Positions 48,155-61,862 of a DNA stretch of 64,000 nucleotides are shown one piece after another; within the stretch, counting starts at the first letter, position 1, and each line of letters opens with the position of its first letter. Source of the DNA: Escherichia phage EC150; the sequence record ON210137.1; one strand, given 5' to 3'. The position numbers were made by a program, and so were the translations under genes. The notes beneath the pieces are model-generated. The model was not told the origin of the DNA, searched no databases, and saw nothing but the letters and a program-made list of their open reading frames with translations.

Positions 48155-48712
48155 TTACTTTTTGCTTTTAGGCAAGGTTATTTTAGCTTCTTTGTATTCA
48201 AAAACGCTAATATCTTCACTAACTGGATTGCCTGCTTCCAGCTGTTCTTTTACAAATGACTTCAGTGTAGCAGAATGAACGCCTTGTTTCAAGGTGGCTT
48301 CAACACCATCTTCACGCAGCGCGGCAACAATCTCTTGCGCCTGTTCGATTTCTTCGCGACCAAACTCAGCCGTGACGCTGGACTTGATCAGGCCGCCGTA
48401 ACCGTTGTTTACAAGCCAATCGAAAACTTTTAATTCGTTTTCTTTCTTGATTGAAGCGTTCACCTTGGACTCGACCTTGATTTTGGTCTTGTCCTCAAGC
48501 TTGATTTCGGACACGCCAAGCTCATCCATAACGCCAGGAAGCAAAACAGTTTTGATTTCACTGATACGCTGCTTTTGCATATCAGCTTCATCTTCAAGCT
48601 CTGTCAAAGCTTCTTGGCGTTCTGCCAGTTCAGATACTAAGCGCGCAAGGCGCTCTTGAATGCTCTCAGGAGCAACCTGCGGCAAATCATCTTCCCAATT
48701 AATATTGCTCAT
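48155..48712 (-). CDS. hypothetical acidic protein (185 aa)
   Basis: ORF in replication block; coiled-coil-like N-terminus. Confidence 0.5.
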   Translation of the reverse strand: MSNINWEDDLPQVAPESIQERLARLVSELAERQEALTELEDEADMQKQRISEIKTVLLPGVMDELGVSEIKLEDKTKIKVESKVNASIKKENELKVFDWLVNNGYGGLIKSSVTAEFGREEIEQAQEIVAALREDGVEATLKQGVHSATLKSFVKEQLEAGNPVSEDISVFEYKEAKITLPKSKK

Positions 48713-48972
48713 ATTTTACCTTCTTGCATTAGCCCTTCAACACGGGTCATTTGATAACGTTCAGGTTTCCAAGCCGCCAAAGCCTTCTCAGCGCCTTTTA
48801 AGGTTTTATACGCCTTGATGCCAGGCGTGATAACAGTATTCACCCCAGCACCGTTGCCATAATCAAACTCTTTAACAACGCGAAACATTCCGTCAATTTC
48901 TTTGACCAAAAGACGTTTGAAAGCGATTGCGCCAGTAGCTTCATTTTTGTAACGTTCAAGGATGCGTACCAT
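48709..48972 (-). CDS. hypothetical protein (87 aa)
   Basis: ORF with 4-nt overlap to downstream gene. Confidence 0.45.
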   Translation of the reverse strand: MVRILERYKNEATGAIAFKRLLVKEIDGMFRVVKEFDYGNGAGVNTVITPGIKAYKTLKGAEKALAAWKPERYQMTRVEGLMQEGKI

Positions 48973-49046
48973 TTTGTATTCCTCTGTTTCGTTTCGATGA
49001 AGTAATTATGACTCATCTTCCATGACAAGTCAAATTATTTTTGATA

Positions 49047-50570
49047 TTAATTCATCTTTTTGCCGTCGAGGATGTGATCAGCAAGCATAGATTTCATGCT
49101 CAGTGAACGCTGAATTTCTTCGTCGATGGTATCAACGCCAATAAAATCAACATACAACACGCTTGATTTGGTGCCGATGCGGTGATTTCGGTCTTCGGAT
49201 TGTTTGCGCAGCTCGTTGTCGTAGTTGCAAGAATAATAAATTGCCAAGTCAGCGGCGGTAAGCGTGATTCCGATGCCTGCCGCTGCAGCGTGACAAACCA
49301 AGACTTGCGTTCCACCGTTCTCGACTGTGTTTTTCTGGAAGTCATCAATCAAGAACTCGCGCTGCTCTTTTGACGTCTCACCGTTATATACACCAGTGAC
49401 CACGCCTTCAGACTCAAGCCAATCCTTAATCTGGTTCATCTCTTCCTTAAAGATGGCCCAAACGATGAATTTGCGCTCTGGGTCGTCTTCCAGCACCCCT
49501 TCCACATAATCCTTAAAGGCCGTGAATCGTGGGTTGTCTTCCATGTAAACCATCTCATCATACACCTTAACAAAGCCTGATGTCACCTGCTTCATCTTAG
49601 TGCGCGACGCGATCATCTCAAACTTGACGTTTTCTTCTTCGCCCTTGTATTCCATCAAATAGTTGTACTCATTCTTGAGTTCATCGTAAACATCACGTTG
49701 TTTAGGCGACAACTCGAAGTCAATAAACTTGTACACCTTCTCTGGAAGGTCAGGCAAGTATTCTGCTTTTGTTGCACGAAAATAGTGCGGTTCCATCAGC
49801 CGGATAAGCTTGTCAAGGTTTTTGTACATCGGTCGGCCAAACTGGTCTTTGCGCGGCACTTGCGGAATCCCATAGCCATTGCCGCCGATTTTCTTGAGGA
49901 TGGCTTGCATCTCTGGGTCGTGCGCTTCAAGCAGCACTGTAAATTCAGAGTTAAAGGCACGGAATGATTTAGTGCCGAGCAATCCTGCTTCAAGGAAGTG
50001 GTATTGCATGTAAATATCCGCAGGCGAGCGCGGCAACGGCGTGCCAGAAAGGATTCGACGGGCCTTTGCCAGCCGTCCCAATTCCACAACCTTGATGGAG
50101 CGTTTGGCTGTGTTATTCTTGATGCGCGTTGATTCGTCGATGATCATCAGGCAGCGGTACTTCTTCAAGACCGACTCGATGTGTTGATAACCGACTGGTG
50201 TGTTGACAGTGTCGATGTTGAATGAGAAGATGCGCGCAGGCACTTCGCCTTCGGGGTAGTGATCAGCAAACATCTTCTCCCAAAGCGCCTTGCCCTTTTT
50301 AGTTTTCATCTTATCGTTGCCGCGCCAGTAGTGTCCAATCCACTTGATGGAAAGGTGCTCTGGTGCTTCACGACGAATCCAGTTTGAGTGGACACCGTTT
50401 GGAGCGATGACGACCATGGCATCGAACGCGCCAGCGGCGAAGTGCTTTTCAAACTCTGCCAAAGCGGTCCAAGTTTTACCAAGACCCTGTTCCATGAAAT
50501 AGGCAAAGTATTTTCTGCGGCCTGCTTTATCAAGCGCCAGAAGCTGGTGGCGCATCCCTTGTGTTTTCAT
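49047..50570 (-). CDS. SNF2/RAD54-family helicase
   Basis: Walker A GLGKT, DExx box IIDESTRIKN, C-terminal helicase domain. Confidence 0.8.
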   Translation of the reverse strand: MKTQGMRHQLLALDKAGRRKYFAYFMEQGLGKTWTALAEFEKHFAAGAFDAMVVIAPNGVHSNWIRREAPEHLSIKWIGHYWRGNDKMKTKKGKALWEKMFADHYPEGEVPARIFSFNIDTVNTPVGYQHIESVLKKYRCLMIIDESTRIKNNTAKRSIKVVELGRLAKARRILSGTPLPRSPADIYMQYHFLEAGLLGTKSFRAFNSEFTVLLEAHDPEMQAILKKIGGNGYGIPQVPRKDQFGRPMYKNLDKLIRLMEPHYFRATKAEYLPDLPEKVYKFIDFELSPKQRDVYDELKNEYNYLMEYKGEEENVKFEMIASRTKMKQVTSGFVKVYDEMVYMEDNPRFTAFKDYVEGVLEDDPERKFIVWAIFKEEMNQIKDWLESEGVVTGVYNGETSKEQREFLIDDFQKNTVENGGTQVLVCHAAAAGIGITLTAADLAIYYSCNYDNELRKQSEDRNHRIGTKSSVLYVDFIGVDTIDEEIQRSLSMKSMLADHILDGKKMN

Positions 50571-50989
50571 GACAATTCCTCTAAATACTTGATGATGTGG
50601 TGAATAGTTCCCTTCACGATTATCTCACGTTGAACGTCTGCAATATTATAACGCTTTAATTCAATCGAAGGGTGGACTAAATAAAACATCTTCTCAGAAT
50701 CGACTTTAAGCAAAACAAATGATGGGTATTTCCAATCATTCCACGAAGAAAGAAAGCTGCACTGACCTTTCTCAAATGCATTTCTGAAAGGTGCAGTGGT
50801 GGCCCTTGCAGGCCACGATTCAAAGAACTTCATTTCAAGCCAAAAGCCGCGCCCTTTCCGGTTGGTGCCGATTACATCCGGCACACCATCACCCGTCATG
50901 GATTCGATTCTTTGAAGCTTCAATGCTGATTCTGAATGCTTCTTCAGGGGCACAAAAATGTATTTTTGTTCACGGTTGTTTGTTGCCAT
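50567..50989 (-). CDS. VRR-NUC domain nuclease
   Basis: GVPDVIG...GFWLEMK matches PD-(D/E)xK VRR-NUC pattern; start adjusted to internal ATG (MATNN). Confidence 0.6.
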   Translation of the reverse strand: MATNNREQKYIFVPLKKHSESALKLQRIESMTGDGVPDVIGTNRKGRGFWLEMKFFESWPARATTAPFRNAFEKGQCSFLSSWNDWKYPSFVLLKVDSEKMFYLVHPSIELKRYNIADVQREIIVKGTIHHIIKYLEELS

Positions 50990-53873
50990 CTGGATACACC
51001 TGTTTGATAACGTCGACGATGAACATATCAATGCCTTCAAGCTTGCGGCCTTTCATCAGGAAGAATGCACCGTTCCCGACGTACTCTGCAATGTACTTCC
51101 CGTATTTCTGGAACTTCTCTGGGCGAATCCTGAAGCGCATTGGCGAGTCGGTCGAATCGTCCTTGCACATAAGGTCGATGAATTGAGTTTCAAGCTTGTT
51201 TCCATACTGGTCAAATTCTGCGTAGCGGCCATCGGCCTGAAGACCCTTTTTAAGCTTGCCGTGCTTTGTATAAATGCCGCGCTCAAGACGTTTACGGATG
51301 CGTGTTGCTTCGTTCTCGTCTGCCAGCACTTTCTTGGTCAGCTTGCCGATTACTATTGCACGCTCATCATCGCCTACTTCCTTCATCTGGCGTATTGAAG
51401 CGCCGGAAGTGACGCCAATCAGATATGGGTCATTATATGCCCAGCCGAACTTGGTGTGCATCTCTGTAAGGTCGCCGTATTTAACTTCAGCATTGGCCAA
51501 TGCATCCTTCTGCTTTTGCGTTAAGGTTCCGGCTTCACGTGCTTCGATGTACTTCATCGCCTTCACCATTCCGTACCCTTTAGCGTTCATGATGCCGCCG
51601 ATTAGCTTTCCGTTAGCGATGGTCCAGTTCATTGAAGAGTGATCAGGGTCGATTGGCACATAATCCACGCCTTCCTTCGCAAGTTCACGTAATATCGCAA
51701 TCGTCTGGTCTTCGTCCTTAGCAGCGCGTAAGCAAGCAGCGGCAAATTCCAACGGGTAGTGTCGTTTAAGCCACAAGGTCCAGTAGGTTACGACCGCGTA
51801 TGACACGGAGTGTGACTTGTTAAAGCCCCATGACCCGAACGTCGCCATCGCCTGCCAAAGCTTTCTTGCATCCGCTTCCGGTACGCCGTTATTTATTGCG
51901 CCTGCAACGAAGTCTTCGCCAAGCTTGTTAAAGTATTCCTCGCCCTTACGACCTGACATCGCCTTACGCACGGCTGATGTTTTCGCCCAGTCGAATGAAC
52001 CAATCTCTTTAACCACGGCCATGATTTGCTCTTGGTAAAGAAACACGCCGTAAGTCTCTTTTAAGTACGGCTCAAGCTGCGGCACGTCGTACTCAATCGG
52101 CGCACGCCCTGCCGCGCGTTCAATGTATTTCTGGGCCATACCGGATGACAACGGGCCAGGTCGACCAAGTGCTGTCAGGTTATCGATTTTGTTGAAGTTG
52201 TCAACGTGCACAAAGTTGGTTACTGAGCGCACAGCGTCACCTTCAAACTGAAAGATTCCTGACATCTTGTTTTCGTTAAGGATATCAAGGACGCTTTGGT
52301 CATCAAGCTTGATTCCGTATAGCGTTTCAGCATCTATCACGCCAGTATCAGAAATGATTCCGAGGGTGCGAAGACCCAACGCATCAAGCTTCAAAAGGTT
52401 AAGGTATTCGCTGTCAGGCTTATCAATTTGCGCAATCCCTTCCGCCGTTACCGTACAGTAATCAGAGATTGGGTCATTACACACGATGATTCCCGCTGCG
52501 TGAACGCCAGTGTGGGAAGGGTGAATCTCAAGGTCACCCATGCATCGCGCGGCGTCAGGATATTTCGCCACGAACTCTTGGCCCGTGGTCGTTGTTGCAA
52601 AAGTATCCTCCAGGCCGTGACCATAACGGGCGTCACCGGATGAGTATTCAAGCAATGCGTTTTTAATGTTGGCCGTTTCGTGATATCCAATGTTGAACTT
52701 CTTACCAACCTGAGCCATTACTGAGTTGGCCTTAAGCGTGTTGATGTTGCCAAGCTTTGCAACGTTCATTTCGCCATATTTTTCTTTAAGGTAATCAAAC
52801 ACCATATAACGTTTGGTGTCCTCAAAGTCAATATCAATATCAGGGAGGTCGGCGCGGCTTACGTCGATGAATCGGGCAAATAGCAGCTTATACGGGATTG
52901 GGTCAACTTCCGTGATGCCGAGGCAATAACAAACCAGTGAACCAGCCGATGAGCCGCGTGCAGGACCGACAAGCATTTTTGTTTTTGCGAATCGTACAAG
53001 GTCCGCTACTACCAGAAAGTATGAGTCGAAATCTTTCAACTGAATCTGGTGAATTTCTTCGTTGAAGCGGTCCTCATATTCCTGAGTCCATTCTTTGATG
53101 TGACCTGCTTTGAGACGGTACTCCATCCCCTCACGCGCAAGCTTTACCATATCACCAGCAAGGTGAATAATCGGTGCCTTGCGTAATTTCAGGTCAAGTC
53201 CGACTATGCCGTTTGCTATGTCAACAGCATTGGCCGTTGCCTGATTCAGCTCATCTTCCGTCAAGATGCCTTTAAGCTGTTTGCGCAAGTCTTCCGCGTC
53301 AACGATGCAGTGCGGCTTGACCGTGTCGCGCACTTCCCAAGCATAAGCAAAGTCAACGTGCTCAGGTGAAGGCATGTGGTTGTATCCGGTTAAAACCAGC
53401 GGCCTTCCGTTGCTGCGGTGAGCCAACACCTGGCGCTTAGCCAAAAGGAACGATGATGGGTTGACGTCTATATAATCGTAGTCCTCTGGCCGCAGCAGCT
53501 CAACGGCACCGCCACAGAATTTAACGACGCCATCAAGCGCACCGAACTCTTCACGGGTAAGCCCACCGCGCTGCGTTGAAAGTGTTGTAGCGTTGTAAAA
53601 AGATTTTAAGTCAAGGGACAGTATCCAAGCCTTCGGTTTGAATCCCTTTTTCGGGTCCGCATCAGGGTCGATGATTGGAATCTCCATCCCAAACATAGGC
53701 TTAATATCATTTTTCTGGCATTCCTTTTCCCAGCGGACGTGACCCCATGTGTTGTTATCAACTAATGCCGCGACTTCGCAGCCCAACTCTTTGAGCCGTG
53801 CTATAATTTCAGGATGCCGTCCATAAACTTCTTTGAACGTGTAACCGCTGCGAACTCTCAATTGTGGAAACAT
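50970..53873 (-). CDS. dnaE: DNA polymerase III alpha-type (DnaE-like) replicative polymerase
   Basis: 967 aa; GPARGSSAGSLVCYCLGIT, PDIDIDF and YQEQIM motifs; N-terminal PHP-like region lacks the usual His pairs (LRVRS). Confidence 0.9.
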   Translation of the reverse strand: MFPQLRVRSGYTFKEVYGRHPEIIARLKELGCEVAALVDNNTWGHVRWEKECQKNDIKPMFGMEIPIIDPDADPKKGFKPKAWILSLDLKSFYNATTLSTQRGGLTREEFGALDGVVKFCGGAVELLRPEDYDYIDVNPSSFLLAKRQVLAHRSNGRPLVLTGYNHMPSPEHVDFAYAWEVRDTVKPHCIVDAEDLRKQLKGILTEDELNQATANAVDIANGIVGLDLKLRKAPIIHLAGDMVKLAREGMEYRLKAGHIKEWTQEYEDRFNEEIHQIQLKDFDSYFLVVADLVRFAKTKMLVGPARGSSAGSLVCYCLGITEVDPIPYKLLFARFIDVSRADLPDIDIDFEDTKRYMVFDYLKEKYGEMNVAKLGNINTLKANSVMAQVGKKFNIGYHETANIKNALLEYSSGDARYGHGLEDTFATTTTGQEFVAKYPDAARCMGDLEIHPSHTGVHAAGIIVCNDPISDYCTVTAEGIAQIDKPDSEYLNLLKLDALGLRTLGIISDTGVIDAETLYGIKLDDQSVLDILNENKMSGIFQFEGDAVRSVTNFVHVDNFNKIDNLTALGRPGPLSSGMAQKYIERAAGRAPIEYDVPQLEPYLKETYGVFLYQEQIMAVVKEIGSFDWAKTSAVRKAMSGRKGEEYFNKLGEDFVAGAINNGVPEADARKLWQAMATFGSWGFNKSHSVSYAVVTYWTLWLKRHYPLEFAAACLRAAKDEDQTIAILRELAKEGVDYVPIDPDHSSMNWTIANGKLIGGIMNAKGYGMVKAMKYIEAREAGTLTQKQKDALANAEVKYGDLTEMHTKFGWAYNDPYLIGVTSGASIRQMKEVGDDERAIVIGKLTKKVLADENEATRIRKRLERGIYTKHGKLKKGLQADGRYAEFDQYGNKLETQFIDLMCKDDSTDSPMRFRIRPEKFQKYGKYIAEYVGNGAFFLMKGRKLEGIDMFIVDVIKQVYPDGNKQP

Positions 53874-54415
53874 TATTTACTCCAGATGTCATATACGCCA
53901 ATTTGTTGGCAGACTTTGTGCAGTAATATTACGTCGTCTAATGCACGGTGCTTCTGTTCATATTTTCCGAAATATAATTCATACAGCTCTTGAAGCTTAA
54001 CTCTTCGGCCAAAAATAGGCAAGGTTTGCTCAACTGTACATATGTTTATTTCTGGAAAATTAACATCATCAAGCGTAAGTCCTTCGCGCTGTAGTGCATA
54101 ATCAAGAATGTTTTTATCGAACGCATGGTTGTGCGCGATAGTTGCATCAGTCTTCTTGAAGATTTCTTTTAGCTGCGGGACGAAATTGATGAACGGTGGA
54201 TTGCACTCAAGGTCTTCATTAGTTAATCCGGTAATCTTTGTGATGATTTCTTCAATCACAATTTCAGGATTAATTATGAATTCAAACGTTTCAAGAATCT
54301 CTTTGCCGTCTGTCAACAGACCTGCAAATTCAATAGGACGCGGCTGCATCCCAAGCGGCGCTTTCGGGTGCACGGTCAATCCGGTTGTTTCGAAGTCATA
54401 AGGGAGAAATAACAC
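53873..54415 (-). CDS. DnaQ-like 3'-5' exonuclease (DEDDh)
   Basis: Exo motifs YDFETTGL, AHNHAFD and HRALDD. Confidence 0.8.
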   Translation of the reverse strand: MLFLPYDFETTGLTVHPKAPLGMQPRPIEFAGLLTDGKEILETFEFIINPEIVIEEIITKITGLTNEDLECNPPFINFVPQLKEIFKKTDATIAHNHAFDKNILDYALQREGLTLDDVNFPEINICTVEQTLPIFGRRVKLQELYELYFGKYEQKHRALDDVILLHKVCQQIGVYDIWSK

Positions 54416-54426
54416 ATTAGCCTCCT

Positions 54427-54453
54427 ACAAAAAGGCCGCCCATTAGGACGGCC
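54427..54453 (-). terminator. putative terminator after accessory operon
   Basis: Imperfect hairpin GGCCGCC/GGACGGCC preceded on the plus strand by an A-run (U-run in the minus transcript). Confidence 0.35.
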
Positions 54454-54469
54454 ACAGATTCACGATTCG

Positions 54470-55021
54470 TTATACGGTGTACGGAGTACCGTCTTGATTC
54501 AAGCGCACGATAAACTTAAGGTCGACGCCAATAATATCACGCGTGTCAAAGATCACATAGTTGTAGCGACGTTGACCAGCAATGTTAGGATTGGTGTGGG
54601 AGTCGGTGATGACTTCCTGCGCAACCTGAATATGTTCGTTCTTAAAGAACTCACGCCATTCGGCAAGTTCTGCGGCAGTCACGTGCATGCCAAGGTGGCT
54701 AACCTGATTATCGTGCGCATCGATGTATTCAATGTTTTCGTTAATCCAGTTGCAGCCCTTTGTGTAGTCAAGGATTTCAAGCTCAAGAGGCTTACCAGCG
54801 CTGCCATCAGTTCCGTTTCCAGCTTGATAGTTGAAGCGTAAATCAGCTTCGTTGGTGCAATCGCCGCGCTGGCCTTTAAAGTCATCAGATTCAAATACGC
54901 GACCAGTAGCAACAACGTGATCATGGAACCATTCTGTCAGGCCGATTTTAGCCAGGAAATTCTGTGCGCGCTGAGCACCTGGGATTGACAGGGCGATTTG
55001 TTCAATTTTAAAATGTGGCAT
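54470..55021 (-). CDS. VOC/glyoxalase-fold protein
   Basis: FKIEQIALSIPGAQRAQNFLAKIGL and VSHLGMHV fit the two-module pattern of glyoxalase-like proteins. Confidence 0.4.
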   Translation of the reverse strand: MPHFKIEQIALSIPGAQRAQNFLAKIGLTEWFHDHVVATGRVFESDDFKGQRGDCTNEADLRFNYQAGNGTDGSAGKPLELEILDYTKGCNWINENIEYIDAHDNQVSHLGMHVTAAELAEWREFFKNEHIQVAQEVITDSHTNPNIAGQRRYNYVIFDTRDIIGVDLKFIVRLNQDGTPYTV

Positions 55022-55117
55022 TTTGTTTCCTTAATTAAATATTATTGATTAATTACTGTGTTATCTTCGTCCTGTTTCTTTTCAGGAGCGGGTGTGACAA
55101 CTTCAAATGTTCGTGAT

Positions 55118-55801
55118 TTATTTCCCAAATGGAATATCAGTACCAGACATAAAGCGCCATGCGCCCGTAATTAAGATATGGCGAATGAAGTCAGCAATTA
55201 CTTGCGGCTCAGTCTCCAATCCATTCATCAGTGCCTTTTTCTGGTATTCAGCAGCATACTCAGGAGTCCAGCCGCGAGTCGCGCAAACAGCATCTTCAAT
55301 CTGTTTGGACATGCCAGTACCACGTAGCTTGTTAGGACTAATAGAGAATACCGTGATGCCGTATTTAGGCGTAAGCTCGTGAGCCATCTGCTTGCTAATC
55401 ATAAGCGCAGCAGCCTTGGATGCATTATAACACAAGCTGGACGTCATAGGAATGTGCGCAGCGTTAGAAACGATATTGATCACAAAACCTTTGTTGTCGA
55501 TAAGACTTTTCAGCGCGGCTTGAGTCGTGTTAACGAAAGAGAATGCGTTGGTGTGCATAACGCGATTGAACTCTTCGTAGTTAACATCTTCGAACCAGTT
55601 GTTGGAGTTGACGCCAGCGCAGTTGATCAAGCCTTCTACATCATATGGGCTTAAAATTTCTTTCATCTGTTTAGCGTCGCGGACGTCATATCCGTATGCT
55701 GAATCGATGCCAAGCACGTTATGACCGTAAGCGCCAAGGGTGTCAAAAATAGATTTACCAAGACCGGAATTGGAACCTGTTACAACAATTACTTTTTTCA
55801 T
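55118..55801 (-). CDS. short-chain dehydrogenase/reductase (classical SDR)
   Basis: TGSNSGLGK cofactor-binding motif, NCAG, catalytic YNASK. Confidence 0.8.
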   Translation of the reverse strand: MKKVIVVTGSNSGLGKSIFDTLGAYGHNVLGIDSAYGYDVRDAKQMKEILSPYDVEGLINCAGVNSNNWFEDVNYEEFNRVMHTNAFSFVNTTQAALKSLIDNKGFVINIVSNAAHIPMTSSLCYNASKAAALMISKQMAHELTPKYGITVFSISPNKLRGTGMSKQIEDAVCATRGWTPEYAAEYQKKALMNGLETEPQVIADFIRHILITGAWRFMSGTDIPFGK

Positions 55802-55866
55802 TTATTTATCCTTTTTGGACTTCGTTTCGATGAGATAAATATAACTCATCGAAACGCACAAGTAAA

Positions 55867-56739
55867 CTATTTATTGAAATTAATATTATGGGTGTTGACA
55901 AGACGTTCACACATGGCGCTGTAAACACCATCGTCGTGTATTGAGTCTTCGTGCTTCAGGCCGCTGATTGCGAAGCGTGTAAGCTTGACAATCTTAAGCT
56001 CGAACAGATGCCACATGTGGTAGTCTTCCGGCGTTTTCAACGTTACGCCATTAGGGAAAAGCACCTGCATAACCTGGCCTACCATCACAGCGTTATCGCC
56101 ATAGACAGCGTTGCGCTCACGAAAGGTTGCTGCCATTGCATCAAGAATATCGGCGGCAGTTGCCGGAGATTGTTCAACTTCCACAGCCTTAGTCTCTTCT
56201 TGCCCTGTTGCGCTTGGATCAATTGCTAATTGTTGCACCACTTCACCTGCCTTGCAAAGATTAAATGTAAAAGCGATTTTATTTTGAGCAACGGAATTAT
56301 AATACAATGCTTCATCTTGCATCCGCGCGAGTACGTCTTGTCGGTCGTCGAATACGTTGATGATTCGATAATCGCCGTGGCGCAATGCGTGCGATAGCCA
56401 TGCAGATTTCATAATAGTTGATGGACGTTTGTCGCCATAGTCTCTCATCTTGATTGTAAATTCATCAAAAGGAAAAACATTGTCCAGACGTTCAAAAGTC
56501 ACTTGTCTGTATTTTTCTGGCCTTGCAGTCCAATATTCAACCGCCTCACCGCGAAGAGATGCCGACTCTACTGCTGATGCAATGTGAGGATAGAACTGAT
56601 CATAACCAATACCGCTATGATAGTCATCATAGTCTGACAACGGACCTGCCACCTTGATGCGGTCTAAGCGCCAACGGTCATCAAACAGCGTTCCGTCAAG
56701 GTCGAATACGTTTAAGATTTCGCTGTTTTTAATGCTCAT
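55867..56739 (-). CDS. HAD-superfamily phosphatase (T4 Pnk phosphatase-like) fused to an uncharacterised C-terminal domain
   Basis: VFDLDGTLF motif I; later DDRQDVLARM resembles the Pnk phosphatase domain; C-terminal ~140 aa unassigned; 4-nt overlap with upstream ThyX-like gene. Confidence 0.65.
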   Translation of the reverse strand: MSIKNSEILNVFDLDGTLFDDRWRLDRIKVAGPLSDYDDYHSGIGYDQFYPHIASAVESASLRGEAVEYWTARPEKYRQVTFERLDNVFPFDEFTIKMRDYGDKRPSTIMKSAWLSHALRHGDYRIINVFDDRQDVLARMQDEALYYNSVAQNKIAFTFNLCKAGEVVQQLAIDPSATGQEETKAVEVEQSPATAADILDAMAATFRERNAVYGDNAVMVGQVMQVLFPNGVTLKTPEDYHMWHLFELKIVKLTRFAISGLKHEDSIHDDGVYSAMCERLVNTHNINFNK

Positions 56740-57539
56740 CCTTTTGATACTCCATCTTTAGCAACTGGATTGTTGGTGATTGGCATCGCACTCCAAAACT
56801 GGATGCGCAACTCTTCTTGCTGTGACGTGGTATCCATCCAATCACGATACCAAGGGCAATGGGCTTTGCCATGACGAGGAAACGCGCATTTACCCATACC
56901 GATGCATTGCGGCTGTAATAATGGATTTGCCCACGGGTGCACCTTGAGGACTTCCGCAACCATTGCGCGGAATACTTCTTGATACTCGCCTTGAGTGCGC
57001 GTGCACAAGCGGTTTGACGCCATCTGCTGCAGCGTGCGCAAGTTGAACTTTGCCATGATATGCGTTTGCATATTAGAAGGCAACACGGCACGTGCATCTT
57101 GAATCTCTGCGCCAGCCGCGCGAAGCTCTTGATACAAAGCATCGATAGTCGCCATCGCATCATCCCACTTCTCTGCCAGTTCAGCGGCCTTCTCGTCATG
57201 ACGAGTCCATCCCTTTGGATCATCCTCTGGGTAAGTGAATTTAGCAGGACGAATCGCATCAAATGCAGACGACTCCTGAGCGCGGCTGGTGCGTTCTTGA
57301 TATGCGCCTGTGCGTGTGCGTACCATCTGATGGGTCATGTTCTTTGATACATCTGTGATATCAAAGATATAGTCCACAAAGTCAAAAGGCGACTTGATTG
57401 TATCAAGCATGTAGCGCCAATGCTCTTGCTTCTCTGATTCCGTCATCTCAGAGACAGGCTTACCAGTCATGCGCGTGTTCTTTGTTTCCAGCAAAAGGTC
57501 AAGTGCATCTTGGGTGTATCGAATTAATTCAACTTTCAT
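56736..57539 (-). CDS. thyX: flavin-dependent thymidylate synthase (ThyX)-like protein, divergent
   Basis: 267 aa; QMVRTRTGAYQERTSR aligns with the ThyX signature region but His of RHR is Thr; C-terminal TRTQGEYQ...HPW resembles the ThyX SHAQ.E...CPW region. Confidence 0.65.
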   Translation of the reverse strand: MKVELIRYTQDALDLLLETKNTRMTGKPVSEMTESEKQEHWRYMLDTIKSPFDFVDYIFDITDVSKNMTHQMVRTRTGAYQERTSRAQESSAFDAIRPAKFTYPEDDPKGWTRHDEKAAELAEKWDDAMATIDALYQELRAAGAEIQDARAVLPSNMQTHIMAKFNLRTLQQMASNRLCTRTQGEYQEVFRAMVAEVLKVHPWANPLLQPQCIGMGKCAFPRHGKAHCPWYRDWMDTTSQQEELRIQFWSAMPITNNPVAKDGVSKG

Positions 57540-57552
57540 TTTAATTATCCTA

Positions 57553-57999
57553 TTAACGGTAATTCACTAGTTGCTGATCACCAGAGAAGGTGCAATGATA
57601 AACGAATTGTGCGTTATAAAGCAACTGAAAACTTTTCTTTGGTTCATTATTAGAACTCATCGATGTAAAGATTTCTGCACCAGAACGGTTTTCACCAATC
57701 AGATTAATAAAGCCGCCAGTTGAACGAGGCTGGACGAAAGTGAAACGTTGCATCCACGGAGTACGGTTGGCACCTTTCCCTGTGAATCCCTGAATCTGAA
57801 TATTCAGACCTTCTTGCTCGTTCACACCGATGTAAGTGGTAATCTTCGCACCAGTCGTTGCTGCGGTCTTACCGTCCATCGCTTCGCAATCGTAAACAGC
57901 GATTGAATCGGAAGTACGGATGGCAGCTTCAGTCGCTTCCATATACATGGTGCCGAGAATAGCAGTTGCGGCAAGCGCGATTCCAGTGATTCGTTTCAT
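57553..57999 (-). CDS. secreted protein of unknown function (148 aa)
   Basis: Signal-peptide-like N-terminus MKRITGIALAATAILGTMYMEATEA; two Cys in mature part. Confidence 0.5.
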   Translation of the reverse strand: MKRITGIALAATAILGTMYMEATEAAIRTSDSIAVYDCEAMDGKTAATTGAKITTYIGVNEQEGLNIQIQGFTGKGANRTPWMQRFTFVQPRSTGGFINLIGENRSGAEIFTSMSSNNEPKKSFQLLYNAQFVYHCTFSGDQQLVNYR

Positions 58000-58064
58000 T
58001 TCCGTTTCCTCTATGAGTTCTGCTTCAATGATTAAAGTATACGCCCATTGAAGCAGAAAGCAAA

Positions 58065-59060
58065 TTATTTATTAGCAATATAAGCAAATTTTTGATAGTT
58101 ATTTGCTTTGATGAGTTTTTCAACTTCAACAAGGTCATGAGCGACGTCATCAAGCAAAATGTTGCGCCAGGTAGCAAATCGACCGACACTAAACACGTTC
58201 AAATCCATGGTCAGCTGCAGGAGTAGGGCGTGTCGCAAGTCTTTCGGAATGTCGACAATCTTGCCATATTTCTGGTCGACCTTTTCAACTTCTTCAAGAG
58301 CAATGTCACTCCATGAGAGGCCAAAAGCTGTCAACACTTCGTCGACTTCTGCGCGCAGCTTGATGTCACGGTAACGAGTGATGCCGCCAGCGGCTTCAAC
58401 TGCAGCTTCACTCACGCTGACCAAAGGAATTGTTTCAATGATCAGTGTGTCGCCAGTGATTGATGCGCGGTAAGTTCTGACGGAGTAGTCAGGGAAGTAA
58501 ATTGTTTGATACAAATCACACTTACGTTTAATCTTAAAGCGGTAAACGCGAATGTTTGCTTTATCAAATGAGAAATCAAGCTTTTGATCAATCCCAGCCA
58601 GCTTCATCATGACTGGCAGCGGCGACGTGTTGATGATTGGCGTCTCGCTATAGCCGCAAAGAGTATCAACCGGAGTATTAAAGAATATGCGGTCACCCAG
58701 TTTGTCGACAAGCTGATCATAAAAGTCATCAGGCGCAATATAACGTGTTGCAGTCTTAAGCTTCATGATTGAACGGCTGCCAAACTGATTGGTGACCTTC
58801 ATGGAATACATATTGGCAAGGTTGATTGGGCAATGGTCGTGGTAGTAGTTGCCGCGAAAATACACAGCCTTGTCAACTGTCACGGCCTTGAAAGGGATTC
58901 CGGTAATACGGCTTACTTCTTCGCCGCGAAAGCGTAGAAGCGCCTTGTGCTGTTGCGCTCGTTCCCCTGCTTCGTACACAATAGAGTTCGGGAAGTGACA
59001 CGCTGTGATAAGTCCTGCCAGTCCGCCGCCGATAATCATTACAGGTTGTTTCATGTTCAT
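58065..59060 (-). CDS. FAD/NAD(P)-binding oxidoreductase
   Basis: N-terminal Rossmann dinucleotide-binding motif VMIIGGGLAGL; 331 aa. Confidence 0.65.
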   Translation of the reverse strand: MNMKQPVMIIGGGLAGLITACHFPNSIVYEAGERAQQHKALLRFRGEEVSRITGIPFKAVTVDKAVYFRGNYYHDHCPINLANMYSMKVTNQFGSRSIMKLKTATRYIAPDDFYDQLVDKLGDRIFFNTPVDTLCGYSETPIINTSPLPVMMKLAGIDQKLDFSFDKANIRVYRFKIKRKCDLYQTIYFPDYSVRTYRASITGDTLIIETIPLVSVSEAAVEAAGGITRYRDIKLRAEVDEVLTAFGLSWSDIALEEVEKVDQKYGKIVDIPKDLRHALLLQLTMDLNVFSVGRFATWRNILLDDVAHDLVEVEKLIKANNYQKFAYIANK

Positions 59061-59137
59061 TTGTCCTTTGTGGGTGATATGAGAAGTATAATAGCTAAAT
59101 TATTTTACAGCAACAAGTCATTTTATTTAGTACAGAT

Positions 59138-59165
59138 GAAAAAAGACCCACAACAAGTGTGGGTC
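59138..59165 (-). terminator. rho-independent terminator after Lys/Ala/Glu-rich gene
   Basis: 8-bp stem GACCCACA/TGTGGGTC, 5-nt loop, U-run in the minus-strand transcript. Confidence 0.5.
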
Positions 59166-59192: not shown

Positions 59193-60038
59193 TTATTCCG
59201 CTTGATCACCGTCTTCGGCATCTTCGTTGGATTCAACATCGACAAACTCGATGTGACCCATCTCTTCCAGCTTGCTCAGGTAGGAGCGAACTGAAGCGCC
59301 AAACAGTTGATCTTTAACTTTTTCGCCCAGCTCATCGATAGACTGTGCCACGCCAACTTCGCCTTCTTTGATCGCCGCCAGAACGCGTCCACGGGTGGAA
59401 TGCTCTTGCGGCTGACTCAGGCCATTGCCAGTGTAGATGAAGTGAGTAGCTTTTGCACGACGCTGACCATTGGCCTTTTTGGCAGCCTTACGTTCTGCGA
59501 TGGCTTTGCGACGTTCTTCAGCTTCTTGCTTACGCTGTTCTTTCTGCTGTTCTGCAGCTTCTTTCGCCGCAATCTTAGCAGCTTCACGCTCTGCCTTGCG
59601 TTTCGCTTTGGCTTCTTCTTTGGCCTTCTCTTTTTCGGCCTTCGCTGCAGCACGGGCTTGATCACGCTCTGCTTTCTTAGCAGCAGCTTGTTCAGCTTTC
59701 AGGCGCTTGGCTTCTTCTTTAGCCTTTGCCTTTTCGATTTCTTTCGCTGCTTTAGCGGCTTCACGCTCTGCTTTCTTAGCAGCAGCCTTTTCTGCACGCT
59801 CTTTGGCCTTCTTGGCTGCTTCTTCAGCACGCTTCTGAGCCTTCTCATCAGCAGCCTGCTTGCGTTTCAGGGCAGCTTCTTCACGCTTGGCTTGTTTTTC
59901 CTGCTCACGCTTCTGGCGTTTTTCTTCGGCTTCTTTCTTTTTAGCCAGACGTTTTTCTTCAGCCACGCGACGACGTTCTGCTGCAGCTGCTTGTTTTTCT
60001 TCTTTAGATAATACTTTGATTGCTTCGGCCATGTTCAC
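59193..60038 (-). CDS. Lys/Ala/Glu-rich low-complexity protein with acidic C-terminal domain
   Basis: About 190 aa of charged helical repeat (EEKR..KAK.EA...) then a ~90-aa C-terminal domain ending in an acidic tail. Confidence 0.6.
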   Translation of the reverse strand: MNMAEAIKVLSKEEKQAAAAERRRVAEEKRLAKKKEAEEKRQKREQEKQAKREEAALKRKQAADEKAQKRAEEAAKKAKERAEKAAAKKAEREAAKAAKEIEKAKAKEEAKRLKAEQAAAKKAERDQARAAAKAEKEKAKEEAKAKRKAEREAAKIAAKEAAEQQKEQRKQEAEERRKAIAERKAAKKANGQRRAKATHFIYTGNGLSQPQEHSTRGRVLAAIKEGEVGVAQSIDELGEKVKDQLFGASVRSYLSKLEEMGHIEFVDVESNEDAEDGDQAE

Positions 60039-60191
60039 AGTCCTTAAATAAATTAGTTTATTTTATATTCCCCGTTTGGGATAACTTAATTATGCCTTCA
60101 GTCGCCGCCAGTAGCAACTAAAAACTCTGGCAGCAATGCCACTTTAATTAAACTGATTTTCAGTTTTATTTTTCGTAAATTTACGTCAACA

Positions 60192-61376
60192 TTAACGCGC
60201 TTTCAAATCACGGTACACGGTCAGATTCTTTTTAGCGCGGGTAATAGCGGTGTACATCATCTTTGCATACGGAACGCCGCGCAGGATTTCTTCCAACACG
60301 CACACATTGTCCCACTCGCTGCCTTGCGATTTGTGCACCGTTATGACATAGCCATAGTCCATGCCTCCAACGGCTCGTTGGGCCTCTTTGCGCACTTCCT
60401 GATCAGTAGAGAAGGAAAGAGGATTTATCTTCACCTTTATATCTTTGCCATCGGTAAGCGAGCGCAAGTTGACATACATGATTTCATTAGACTCGTCTTC
60501 ATCCCTTTCAAAGTCCGGCACTGGCTCATAACTAATAACAATCCCTTGCTCGCCATTACAGAATCCTGGACCGTGTTGGTTGAATGTGCAAATAACTTTC
60601 TCTCCGATTCCTGGCATCGGCGTTATACGTCCGCTCACTTGCCGCAATAATGAATTCCATTTATCTTTGGTGCTATTATATGAGCAAATAATTTGATCAT
60701 CTTCGCCCATGAATTTCTTCAACGCAGTAACGCGCGGCGATTCAGCCAACACCTTGACATCATCGTATTCACGCGGAGGAAGTCGGTTGCCCTGTCGCAC
60801 GAAGAAGGAAGCGCGGATGATGTTGGACTCTTTCCCTTGCCGCATGATTTCGGTTAACAGTACGTCAACGGCATCTTCAGTAAAGTAGGCGGCGGCTTTT
60901 ACCGGAGGGACTTGTCCAATGTCGCCTAATGCCAGAACAGGGATGCGGTGATCAAGAAGGCGCTCTGCGTCCCACTCGCCAACCATTGAAGCTTCATCAA
61001 GGACGACAAGATGCGGCCTTTCATCAAGCGTTGACTTCCTTGCAAAGATTGGTTCATTGTCATCGTTAACGCCGCGCACGTTATAGATGAACTGGTGAAG
61101 GGTCTTAGCGCCACGACACCCTTTCTGCTTCAATCGGCTGGCGGCCTTTCCGGTCGGCGCAATATAAATGGCACCGTACTCACCGACACAACGGCGCACA
61201 ATCTCACGCGCAATAGAGGTTTTACCTGTTCCTGCATAGCCAGCGATGAAAAACACGCGCTTCGTTGTTTTGCCGTCCTGCAATCGCTTGTACCATGCAA
61301 CGGCCTTTTCGATGGCGTCAATCTGTTGCGCGTTAAACTGAATCACTGGCTCATCATTAAATTCTGGAATGTTCAT
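60192..61376 (-). CDS. SF1 helicase (Dda/RecD-like)
   Basis: Walker A GYAGTGKTS, Walker B VVLDEASMV, C-terminal HKSQGSEWD motif. Confidence 0.8.
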   Translation of the reverse strand: MNIPEFNDEPVIQFNAQQIDAIEKAVAWYKRLQDGKTTKRVFFIAGYAGTGKTSIAREIVRRCVGEYGAIYIAPTGKAASRLKQKGCRGAKTLHQFIYNVRGVNDDNEPIFARKSTLDERPHLVVLDEASMVGEWDAERLLDHRIPVLALGDIGQVPPVKAAAYFTEDAVDVLLTEIMRQGKESNIIRASFFVRQGNRLPPREYDDVKVLAESPRVTALKKFMGEDDQIICSYNSTKDKWNSLLRQVSGRITPMPGIGEKVICTFNQHGPGFCNGEQGIVISYEPVPDFERDEDESNEIMYVNLRSLTDGKDIKVKINPLSFSTDQEVRKEAQRAVGGMDYGYVITVHKSQGSEWDNVCVLEEILRGVPYAKMMYTAITRAKKNLTVYRDLKAR

Positions 61377-61702: not shown

Positions 61703-61862
61703 TTCAGGCGACCTTTGTTAGTGCGGAAATATTTTCTGATAGTATAATTGCAGATATAGTATAAAGCAAAGTAAATCGAAATTGTGAACTAAATGGTAAA
61801 TATTGTTGACTTTGTATCACTCAATATTATACTGCAGGTATTGATCACCGAAGGAAAGAAAG

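What the first reader, a model, noticed from the sequence alone, without database searches (positions are those of the whole stretch)
59193..60038. Lys/Ala/Glu-rich repeat protein with its own terminator
About 190 residues of low-complexity charged helical repeat precede a ~90-aa C-terminal domain ending in an acidic tail. The repeat resembles TolA or histone-H1-like spacers. In a phage replication block this could be a nucleoid-associated or DNA-condensing factor, or a host-protein mimic. The large opposite-strand ORF 59307-60011 is a shadow of this repeat.
Basis: partly seen in the sequence, partly recalled or inferred. Interest (0 to 1): 0.5.

Follow-up and report, generated by a model that had tools for sequence, protein, structure and literature searches.

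The report
Abundant long-helix winged-helix phage protein
This is a real, strongly expressed gene found in nearly all PB1-like (Lindbergviridae) phages; it encodes a 26-nm charged helix joined to a small winged-helix domain and an acidic tail, it probably binds DNA next to the replication machinery, it is not TolA, and its function has never been tested.

Summary
The minus-strand ORF 59193-60032 (279 aa; the real start is ATG 60032, not GTG 60038) encodes three parts: a 177-residue Ala/Lys/Glu/Arg helix, a roughly 80-aa C-terminal domain, and an acidic tail. It has its own sigma70-like promoter and a strong terminator. The opposite-strand ORF is a shadow (pN/pS 1.9, against 0.026 for the sense frame).

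The window is a Wifcevirus (phage Mansfield, 99.9% identity). The gene belongs to PHROG 4765 (function unknown). It occurs in at least 8 of the 10 Lindbergviridae genera and always sits directly after the Dda-like helicase gene.

The C-terminal domain folds confidently (core pLDDT above 90) as a divergent winged helix. A conserved Arg-Arg arm precedes it. The helix has no heptad pattern, but its Lys/Arg residues recur every 3.65-3.70 residues, forming a one-sided basic stripe. This is seen in the window, in 6 of 6 orthologues from other phages and in 15 of 18 family representatives, and it is absent from TolA.

Published mass spectrometry found the protein in CsCl-purified Wifcevirus virions with 422 spectra, similar to the portal protein. 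Codon usage is of the high-expression type.

The "TolA" and "structural protein" labels have no support. My best reading, with confidence 0.4, is an abundant DNA-binding accessory or architectural protein of the replication module. This is inferred, not shown.

The parts
59193..60032 (-). CDS, 279 aa plus stop (Mansfield CPT_Mansfield_073 orthologue; PHROG 4765)
   Evidence: ORF list. The GenBank CDS is 840 nt in all Wifceviruses. pN/pS is 0.026. PHROG 4765 matches at E 2.3e-84. Peptides were found by mass spectrometry in vB_Eco4M-7 and ECML-117.
59475..60005 (-). Residues 10-186: a single uninterrupted Ala/Lys/Glu/Arg helix of about 26 nm, with a one-sided Lys/Arg stripe recurring every 3.7 residues
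   Evidence: AF2 predicts helix 10-186 with pLDDT rising to 97. There is no 3.5-residue hydrophobic periodicity. The Lys/Arg periodicity peaks at 3.70 residues with power 3.67, against a null 95% of about 1.7-1.8. pN/pS in this region is 0.007.
59589..59786 (-). Internal duplication, 2 x 33 aa (3 x 11 residues each), residues 83-148
   Evidence: TRF reports period 99, 1.8 copies and 79% matches. 20 of 33 amino acids are identical.
59439..59540 (-). Residues 165-198: the conserved end of the helix plus the basic arm (consensus E.RR.A.A.R.A...G.RR.KATH). R192 is invariant and R191 nearly so
   Evidence: Alignments A1, A2 and A3. The arm has a mean net charge of +2.8.
59241..59444 (-). Residues 197-264: divergent winged-helix domain (beta-alpha-beta-alpha-alpha-beta). 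Q209, S212, R214, R249, K254 and L255 are invariant
59196..59240 (-). Residues 265-279: acidic tail (DVESNEDAEDGDQAE), predicted disordered
   Evidence: Composition. pLDDT is about 50. The family mean net charge of the tail is -6.3, range 0 to -18. The intact C-terminal peptide was seen by mass spectrometry with 162 spectra.
60041..60045 (-). Shine-Dalgarno sequence AAGGA, 8 nt before ATG 60032
   Evidence: Sequence. It is invariant in 8 Wifceviruses and annotated as an RBS in Mansfield.
60089..60117 (-). Sigma70-like promoter candidate, TTGCTA-17-CATAAT
   Evidence: Consensus scan, 9 of 12 matches. The element is invariant across 8 Wifceviruses in an intergenic region that is 99% identical. 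It is predicted only; no transcription start site has been mapped.
60120..60142 (-). Weak terminator-like hairpin closing the upstream helicase operon
   Evidence: 5-bp stem followed by GAGTTTTT. It is largely conserved, with 3 variable positions in or just after the stem.
59135..59165 (-). Intrinsic terminator, GACCCACA-CTTGT-TGTGGGTC followed by T6
   Evidence: Invariant in 8 Wifceviruses. Annotated as a terminator in Mansfield and WFC. Positional equivalents exist in 14-1, MTx and XcP1.
59307..60011 (+). Shadow ORF (234 aa, Phe/Leu/Ser/Cys-rich); not a gene
   Evidence: It is the in-register antisense frame of a region poor in TTA, CTA and TCA codons. pN/pS is 1.9.

Best explanation
Proposed function. 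This is a core, highly expressed Lindbergviridae gene. It encodes an abundant nucleic-acid-binding (most likely DNA-binding) accessory or architectural protein that works with the phage replication module.

Proposed mechanism:
- The conserved C-terminal ~100 residues dock on DNA. They comprise a basic helix end, an Arg-Arg arm and a divergent winged-helix domain with invariant Arg and Lys on its third helix.
- The ~26-nm single alpha-helix presents a continuous Lys/Arg stripe on one face and Glu/Gln on the other. It could lie along or bridge DNA, or pair side by side with neighbouring molecules.
- The acidic tail either folds back on the basic surfaces (self-inhibition) or recruits a partner, as acidic tails do in SSB, T7 gp2.5 and HMGB1.

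What is shown:
- The gene is real and under strong purifying selection.
- It is its own transcription unit, by sequence signals.
- The protein is made and is abundant in virion preparations.
- The fold class, the charge stripe, and the fixed position after the Dda-like helicase.

What is inferred:
- The ligand (DNA).
- The roles of the helix and the tail.
- The link to replication.
For: Real, constrained gene:
- pN/pS is 0.026 overall and 0.007 in the helix, with 71 of 80 variable sites at codon position 3.

High expression:
- A predicted promoter plus flanking terminators, with a 99% conserved leader.
- 25 of 25 Arg codons are CGT or CGC and 9 of 10 Leu codons are CTG, against 74% and 22% in neighbouring genes.
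- In CsCl-purified vB_Eco4M-7 it gave 422 spectra, score 1198 and area 3.1e9. The portal gave 559 spectra, score 1112 and area 2.0e9 (PMC7048862).

Fold:
- AF2 models the C-terminal domain at mean pLDDT 85, with the core above 90.

Features typical of DNA binders:
- An invariant RR arm with net charge +2.8.
- A basic first helix (+1 to +4, most often +3).
- Invariant R249 and K254 on the third helix.

Helix:
- One continuous helix over residues 10-186, with no heptad signal.
- Lys/Arg periodicity of 3.65-3.70 residues in the window, in 6 of 6 orthologues from other phages and in 15 of 18 representatives. It is absent from TolA domain II.

Context:
- The gene lies directly downstream of the Dda-like helicase in 11 of 11 contexts with enough flanking sequence.
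- In three metagenomic relatives it lies between the helicase and the Pol III epsilon/alpha genes.
- No SSB or other DNA-coating protein is annotated in the curated Bas99 genome.
Against: - No DNA-binding family matches by sequence in Pfam, NCBIfam or PDB.
- Foldseek against PDB finds nothing significant; the best E-value is 0.45.
- The winged-helix core is slightly acidic, mean net -1.5, and its third helix is net neutral. Many winged-helix domains bind proteins rather than DNA (RPA32C, Scc1, ScpB).
- The helix is 20% Glu and is nearly neutral in several orthologues, from net -5 to +24.
- The weak YejK/NA37 signal is unreliable: E 0.1, E 0.007 in 3 of 19 members, and hhalign probability 40%.
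- A monomer AF2 model cannot show oligomers or complexes.
- No experiment on this family was found.
Confidence: 0.4

Rival explanations
1. Protein-protein adaptor or spacer of the replisome. The winged-helix domain and acidic tail bind a phage or host protein (for example the neighbouring Dda-like helicase, Pol III alpha/epsilon, host SSB or the clamp). The rigid charged helix acts as a 26-nm stalk or ruler and does not bind DNA directly.
For: - The winged-helix core is net acidic.
- The helix shows enrichment of Lys followed by Glu at i+4 (z 2.9) and no hydrophobic seam, as in single alpha-helix spacers.
- The gene is strictly adjacent to the helicase gene.
Against: - A pure spacer would not need a Lys/Arg stripe kept in phase across genera, nor near-zero amino-acid change within the genus (pN/pS 0.007).
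- The invariant RR arm and the basic helix end look like a nucleic-acid contact.
- The very high abundance exceeds what a stoichiometric replisome adaptor would need.
Confidence: 0.25
2. Virion-packaged internal protein, a phage 'histone' or ejection protein. It is bound to the genome inside the capsid and injected with it, to protect or organise the incoming DNA.
For: - It is abundant in CsCl-purified vB_Eco4M-7 virions (422 spectra, similar to the portal) and was also detected in ECML-117.
- It was not among the 31 proteins found in DNA-depleted 'ghost' particles of the Pbunavirus SCUT-S1. That is what a DNA-bound cargo would predict.
- Several GenBank records call the orthologue a 'putative structural protein'.
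Against: - The same preparations also contained clearly non-structural enzymes: the glyoxalase-family protein at score 718, a helicase and a reductase. Carry-over of abundant lysate proteins is therefore plausible.
- In ECML-117 the signal was tiny: 2 peptides and score 3.2, against 318 for the portal homologue PI34_gp34.
- The gene sits in the replication block behind a sigma70-like promoter, not in the late structural module.
- The C-terminus is unprocessed.
- The source of the 'structural' label could not be traced.
Confidence: 0.15
3. TolA homologue or envelope-spanning protein, as annotated in FEC19, ECML-117, vB_Eco4M-7 and several Pseudomonas phages.
For: - The only support is an Ala/Lys/Glu-rich composition like that of TolA domain II.
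Against: - BLASTP against E. coli TolA gives E 0.078 for a single pairwise comparison.
- There is no hydrophobic segment: the maximum Kyte-Doolittle 19-residue score is 0.61, against 2.45 in TolA.
- There is no TolA C-terminal domain; E. coli TolA itself matches PF06519 at 2e-38.
- TolA lacks the 3.7-residue Lys/Arg periodicity, with power 0.35.
Confidence: 0.01

Closest known systems
PHROG 4765 (orthologues include Pseudomonas phage 14-1 ORF66, PB1 gp69 and JG024 gp67, Serratia MTx gp078, Burkholderia BcepF1 'TolA protein')
   Same: It is a full-length member (E 2.3e-84). It has the same three-part architecture and the same position after the Dda-like helicase.
   Different: Nothing of substance differs. 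The family has no assigned or tested function. Its labels ('TolA', 'putative structural protein', in one record 'ATP-dependent DNA helicase') are inconsistent.
Winged-helix DNA-binding domains (Fur/PerR, MecI/BlaI, ArsR, ORC/Cdc6 winged helix)
   Different: The strand order is beta-alpha-beta-alpha-alpha-beta: an extra N-terminal strand and only one strand after helix 3, so there is no true wing hairpin. The core is net acidic. There is no sequence-level match to any HTH family, and Foldseek finds nothing significant.
Linker histone H1/H5
   Same: The overall logic is similar: a small winged-helix globular domain joined to a long Lys/Ala-rich extension, in an abundant protein.
   Different: The domain order is reversed. 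The extension is a Glu-rich, predicted rigid helix with only a modest or zero net charge, not a disordered polycation. There is no Linker_histone Pfam match, and the Foldseek match to the yeast H1 globular domain has E 2.9. The resemblance is a loose analogy, not membership.
E. coli TolA domain II
   Same: Ala/Lys/Glu-rich, predicted long helix.
   Different: No significant similarity, no membrane anchor, no TolA domain III and no 3.7-residue Lys/Arg periodicity.
Acidic-tailed DNA-binding accessory proteins (E. coli SSB, T7 gp2.5, T4 gp32, HMGB1)
   Same: It is abundant, appears to have its own transcription unit within a replication block, and ends in a disordered acidic C-terminal tail.
   Different: There is no OB fold or HMG box. 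The tail lacks the terminal aromatic residue of the SSB and gp2.5 tails. Binding to single-stranded DNA is untested.
ER/K single alpha-helix (SAH) domains and 11-residue-repeat (hendecad) helices
   Same: A continuous charged helix without a hydrophobic seam. The periodicity is close to 11/3 = 3.67, and the internal duplication is 33 = 3 x 11 residues.
   Different: It contains 30% Ala. The charges are segregated onto opposite faces rather than distributed around the helix. Glu followed by Lys at i+4 is not enriched (z -0.8).

Membership tests
PHROG 4765 (Lindbergviridae core protein, function unknown) | Full-length profile match | tested here: met
   E 2.3e-84; residues 3-281 match profile positions 14-271 of 294.
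PHROG 4765 (Lindbergviridae core protein, function unknown) | Conserved C-terminal domain with the motif G.RR.KATH...PQ..S.RG...LYG..R..LSKLE, preceded by a K/A/E-rich helix | tested here: met
   Alignments A1 and A3 and the family sequences. Exhaustive HMMER finds only 26 cluster representatives; every full-length sequence inspected has this layout.
TolA (Tol-Pal system) | N-terminal transmembrane anchor (domain I) | tested here: not met
   The maximum 19-residue hydropathy is 0.61, against 2.45 in E. coli TolA.
TolA (Tol-Pal system) | TolA C-terminal domain (PF06519) | tested here: not met
   No Pfam hit at E <= 0.1. E. coli TolA matches at 2e-38.
TolA (Tol-Pal system) | Sequence similarity beyond composition | tested here: not met
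   BLASTP with composition adjustment gives a best E of 0.078 for one pairwise comparison.
Winged-helix (wHTH) fold class | Three-helix bundle with helix-turn-helix, packed against a small antiparallel sheet | tested here: met
Winged-helix (wHTH) fold class | Binds DNA through helix 3 and a wing or arm | not testable with these tools
   R249 and K254 on helix 3 and the RR arm are invariant, but helix 3 is net neutral and the core is net -1.5. A binding assay is needed.
Linker histone H1/H5 | GH1/GH5 globular domain (Pfam Linker_histone) | tested here: not met
   No Pfam match, including when each of 19 family members was scanned at E <= 5. Foldseek against Hho1p GII gives E 2.9.
Linker histone H1/H5 | Highly basic, disordered Lys/Ala/Pro-rich tail | tested here: not met
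   The region is 20% Glu, has no Pro, and is predicted as a continuous helix. Net charge is +24 over 179 residues here and ranges from -5 to +15 in other members.
Canonical coiled coil | Heptad (3.5-residue) periodicity of hydrophobic residues | tested here: not met
   Power at 3.5 residues is 0.04-0.05, against a null 95% of about 1.7. There are only 7 Leu/Ile/Val in 179 residues.
ER/K single alpha-helix | Charged helix stabilised by i to i+4 Glu-Lys/Arg pairs and monomeric in solution | tested here: inconclusive
   The helix is continuous in the AF2 model. Lys/Arg followed by Glu at i+4 is enriched (z 2.9), but Glu followed by Lys/Arg at i+4 is not (z -0.8). The oligomeric state cannot be tested here.
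NA37 / YejK nucleoid-associated protein | Significant profile match to PF04245 or to the YejK structure | tested here: inconclusive
OB-fold single-stranded DNA-binding proteins | OB fold | tested here: not met
   The model is a helix plus a winged-helix domain, with no beta-barrel. Only the acidic tail is shared.

The most novel reading that the evidence does not exclude
The protein is a phage-encoded chromatin-like factor of a new design. Many copies would coat the phage genome, using the winged-helix domain plus Arg-Arg arm as an anchor and the 26-nm 'Janus' helix (a Lys/Arg stripe facing DNA, a Glu stripe facing the next molecule) to zip DNA segments or molecules together. It would be partly packaged and injected with the genome, shielding it from host nucleases or defence systems and organising the very fast replication reported for Wifceviruses.
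Probability: 0.15. Interest if true: 0.7.

Novelty: new variant of a known kind. Interest (0 to 1): 0.45.

Why it matters
Lindbergviridae include the Pbunavirus phages that are among those most used for Pseudomonas therapy. They also include the Wifceviruses, which are reported to have 3-5 minute latent periods (10.1101/2024.09.12.612763).

This gene is one of their core genes. It is apparently among their most abundant products, and it is mislabelled in databases as TolA or as a structural protein.

If it is a DNA-coating or replisome-organising factor, it would fill the gap left by the absence of any recognisable SSB or architectural protein in these genomes. It would also give a simple model for how a long helix with separated charge stripes engages nucleic acid.

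If it is truly packaged, it matters for virion composition, for quality control of therapeutic preparations, and for phage-defence interactions.

Even the modest result is useful: the TolA annotation should be removed, and the opposite-strand ORF should not be called.

Tried and rejected
Searches that gave nothing:
- Sequence searches of the C-terminal domain against PDB (single sequence and profile), Pfam, NCBIfam and a 5.8-billion-protein index gave no informative relatives.
- Exhaustive HMMER found only the protein's own family, 26 representatives.
- Foldseek against BFVD returned only family members.
- Foldseek against PDB returned nothing significant.
- The AFDB library was not available.

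Leads followed and set aside:
- The recurring weak YejK/NA37 hit reached only 40% hhalign probability and is treated as unproven.
- TolA homology is rejected.
- A canonical coiled coil is rejected.
- An amphipathic lipid-binding 11-mer helix was considered because of the 3.67-residue periodicity. It is rejected because Ala and other hydrophobic residues are not polarised (Ala resultant 0.12).

Literature:
- The source of the 'putative structural protein' label was sought in the JG024, KTN6/KT28, SCUT-S1, Pa193 and E217 papers and in GenBank notes. It could not be traced.
- The original PB1 comparative paper is not held.
- The 14-1 ONT-cappable-seq supplement, which would give TSS and TTS positions, is not held.
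- A 'gp66' hit in a Gabija preprint refers to phage D3, not to this family.

Other:
- GC-skew analysis did not indicate an origin in or next to the gene.
Full report
**Where the window comes from.** The region is 99.9% identical to Escherichia phage Mansfield and 95-98% identical to about 27 other Wifcevirus records. Wifcevirus belongs to the family Lindbergviridae together with Pbunavirus (the PB1-like phages) and eight other genera. The finding lies in the minus-strand replication and nucleotide-metabolism block. Reading along the minus strand, the gene order is:
- RepB-like primase (divergent, on the plus strand);
- a 108-aa ORF;
- the Dda/RecD-like helicase (60192-61376);
- the target gene;
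- a UGM-like flavoprotein;
- a 148-aa ORF;
- ThyX;
- a phosphatase/PNK, an SDR, a glyoxalase-family protein, and Pol III epsilon and alpha.

**The observation.**
- *ORF and start.* The ORF is real. An AAGGA Shine-Dalgarno sequence (60045-60041) lies 8 nt from ATG 60032 and only 2 nt from the GTG. Every annotated record calls an 840-nt CDS.
- *Composition.* The composition is as described: residues 13-200 are 85% A/K/E/R with net charge +27, followed by an ordinary ~60-aa segment and a tail of net -9.
- *Repeats.* The region is low-complexity rather than a regular repeat array. The one clear repeat is a 99-bp (33-aa) duplication.
- *Terminator.* The terminator hairpin at 59165-59145 is strong and invariant in eight Wifceviruses. 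A terminator occupies the same position in 14-1, MTx and XcP1.
- *Upstream region.* A weak hairpin closes the helicase operon, and a TTGCTA-17-CATAAT promoter candidate follows. This 153-nt spacer is 99% identical across the genus, while synonymous sites in the CDS differ at pS 0.14. By its signals the gene is therefore a separate transcription unit. The promoter is predicted only.

**Coding strand.** Eight Wifcevirus alleles have no indels and 80 variable sites, of which 71 fall at codon position 3 of the minus-strand frame. pN/pS is 0.026 overall, 0.007 in the low-complexity helix and 0.076 in the C-terminal part. The plus-strand ORF 59307-60011 is the exact antisense register. It stays open only because TTA, CTA and TCA codons are nearly absent, and its pN/pS is 1.9. 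The shadow call is correct. The near-absence of amino-acid change in a low-complexity region is itself notable.

**Distribution.**
- There is no Pfam or NCBIfam hit, but there is a full-length match to PHROG 4765, function unknown.
- tblastn with the C-terminal 91 aa finds 356 phage records: 293 Pseudomonas, plus Serratia, Burkholderia, Xanthomonas, Pantoea, Luteibacter and Vibrio phages.
- An exhaustive HMMER scan of 1.84 billion cluster representatives finds only 26.
- All full-length members share the layout: a short variable N-terminus (His-rich in 7 of 18), 100-250 aa of K/A/E-rich sequence, the conserved motif G.RR.KATH...PQ..S.RG...LYG..R..LSKLE..GH.DF, and a usually acidic tail.
- At least 8 of the 10 Lindbergviridae genera are represented.
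- In 11 of 11 contexts with enough flanking sequence, the gene directly follows the Dda-like helicase on the same strand.
- What lies downstream varies. In three metagenomic relatives it is the Pol III epsilon/alpha pair, preceded by one or two small ORFs and, in one contig, a PNKP-like gene.

**Structure of the C-terminal domain.**
- With a 19-sequence alignment, AF2 gives a confident C-terminal domain (core pLDDT 93-96) with topology beta-alpha-beta-alpha-alpha-beta.
- Foldseek against PDB is not significant, and against BFVD it returns only family members.
- The domain is therefore a divergent winged-helix variant.
- The invariant residues are R192 in the arm, Q209/S212/R214 at the start of helix 1, and R249/K254/L255 on helix 3.
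- By charge, the arm is +2.8 on average and helix 1 is +1 to +4 (most often +3). Helix 3 is neutral and the whole core averages -1.5.

**Structure of the helix.**
- The full-length model is one uninterrupted helix over residues 10-186, about 26 nm, with pLDDT up to 97.
- There is no heptad signal: power at 3.5 residues is 0.05, against a null 95% of about 1.7.
- Lys/Arg positions show a sharp periodicity at 3.70 residues (power 3.67). Asp/Glu, Gln and the few Leu/Ile/Val sit on the opposite face, and Ala is unpolarised.
- The same 3.65-3.70 peak is the global maximum in six divergent named orthologues and in 15 of 18 cluster representatives, although these helices cannot be aligned and their net charge ranges from -5 to +24.
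- E. coli TolA domain II lacks the peak, with power 0.35.
- The 33-aa duplication equals three 11-residue units, which keeps the stripe in phase.
- The conserved property of the 'spacer' is therefore a one-sided basic stripe on a long helix, not charge or length as such.

**Expression.**
- Codon usage is of the E. coli high-expression type. All 25 Arg codons are CGT or CGC, 9 of 10 Leu are CTG, and 78% of Glu are GAA. The six neighbouring genes use 74% CGT/CGC and 22% CTG.
- Necel et al. (PMC7048862) analysed CsCl-banded virions of two Wifceviruses by LC-MS/MS.
- In vB_Eco4M-7 the protein (gp83, labelled 'TolA protein', 31.1 kDa) gave 7 peptides, 25.8% coverage, 422 spectra, score 1198 and area 3.1e9.
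- For comparison, the portal gave 559 spectra, score 1112 and area 2.0e9.
- All confident peptides come from the C-terminal domain, as expected after trypsin digestion of a Lys/Arg-rich helix. They include the intact C-terminal peptide (162 spectra), so the tail is not removed.
- In ECML-117 only 2 peptides were found, with score 3.2.
- The same preparations contained non-structural enzymes (the glyoxalase-family protein at score 718, a helicase and a reductase), so carry-over cannot be excluded.
- In LiCl/DNase 'ghosts' of the Pbunavirus SCUT-S1 the orthologue was not among the 31 proteins detected.
- The protein is therefore made and abundant. Whether it is truly inside virions is unresolved.

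**Interpretation.** I think the most likely function is an abundant DNA-binding accessory or architectural protein of the replication module, with confidence 0.4.
- Shown: a real and constrained gene, transcription-unit signals, abundance, a winged-helix-type fold, the conserved basic arm and stripe, and fixed linkage to the Dda-like helicase.
- Inferred: that the ligand is DNA, that the helix stripe contacts it or zips molecules together, and that the acidic tail self-inhibits or recruits partners in the way SSB, gp2.5 or HMGB1 tails do.
- Against: the acidic winged-helix core, the Glu-rich and sometimes neutral helix, the lack of any sequence link to DNA-binding families, and the many protein-binding winged-helix precedents.
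- Rivals: a replisome protein-protein adaptor or stalk (0.25), a genuinely packaged internal or ejection protein (0.15), and TolA homology (0.01, rejected).
- The curated Bas99 genome annotates no SSB or other DNA-coating protein. This leaves room for such a role but does not prove it.

**Comparison with known families.**
- The protein is a member of PHROG 4765.
- It is not TolA: there is no anchor, no domain III and no significant similarity.
- It is not a linker histone: there is no GH1/GH5 match, the domain order is reversed, and the extension is helical, Glu-rich and weakly charged.
- It shares the fold class of winged-helix DNA binders, but with a variant topology.
- The weak, repeated hit to the nucleoid-associated protein YejK (E 0.1; E 0.007 in 3 of 19 members; hhalign 40%) is recorded as an unproven lead.

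**Verdict.**
- The functional guess (DNA-associated factor) is reasonable but untested. The TolA and H1 resemblance is only compositional.
- New here are the family-wide 3.7-residue basic stripe, the divergent winged-helix assignment, the strict linkage to the helicase gene, and the connection to published proteomics showing high abundance.
- I rate it a new variant of a known kind (a winged-helix nucleic-acid-binding protein with an unusual charged-helix module), of moderate interest.

Noticed in passing
window 48300-59060 (minus strand), especially 58065-59060 and 57553-57999: Just downstream lies a cluster: a UGM-like flavoprotein, a 148-aa ORF, ThyX, a HAD phosphatase/PNK, an SDR and a glyoxalase-family protein. 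The flavoprotein has no Pfam or NCBIfam hit, and the Mansfield annotators cite an HHpred match to 1I8T. The 148-aa ORF has a signal-peptide-like N-terminus and no family hit. Together this looks like a nucleotide, sugar or DNA-modification module whose chemistry is unknown.
   Followed up: partly
window 60039-60191 (intergenic, minus strand): The spacer between the helicase gene and the target gene is about 99% identical across eight Wifceviruses. It is more conserved than synonymous sites of the flanking CDS (pS 0.14). It contains two hairpins and a small CCC-AAAC-GGG stem in the predicted 5' leader. This suggests regulatory RNA or DNA elements beyond the promoter.
   Followed up: partly
family members P0007, P0011, P0014, P0015, P0017, P0019, P0020: Seven of 18 family representatives start with His-rich peptides (for example MSHTHHHD, MSHGHHNHGVSDAGHSHN, MHKHHNHDHN). 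This feature is absent from the Wifcevirus protein. It may be a metal-binding or partner-binding N-terminal tip at the far end of the helix.
   Followed up: no
published MS of vB_Eco4M-7 and ECML-117 (PMC7048862); window orthologue of the glyoxalase-family gene, Mansfield CPT_Mansfield_066: The glyoxalase-family protein of the same block is also abundant in CsCl-purified virion preparations (score 718, 8 peptides). Either these preparations carry over abundant middle proteins, or several 'metabolic' proteins are packaged.
   Followed up: no
window 61703-61862: A divergent intergenic region lies between the minus-strand replication operon and the plus-strand RepB-like primase and small-ORF block. 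It holds promoter-like sites on both strands (TTGACT-16-TATACT at 61806-61833). The cumulative GC skew turns here, which mainly tracks the switch in gene orientation. It is a candidate control region or origin.
   Followed up: partly
GenBank records of Lindbergviridae: Annotation of this gene is inconsistent across records. Labels include 'TolA protein', 'putative structural protein', 'hypothetical protein', and in one Pseudomonas phage record (Nello) 'ATP-dependent DNA helicase' over the match. None of the labels could be traced to evidence.
   Followed up: yes
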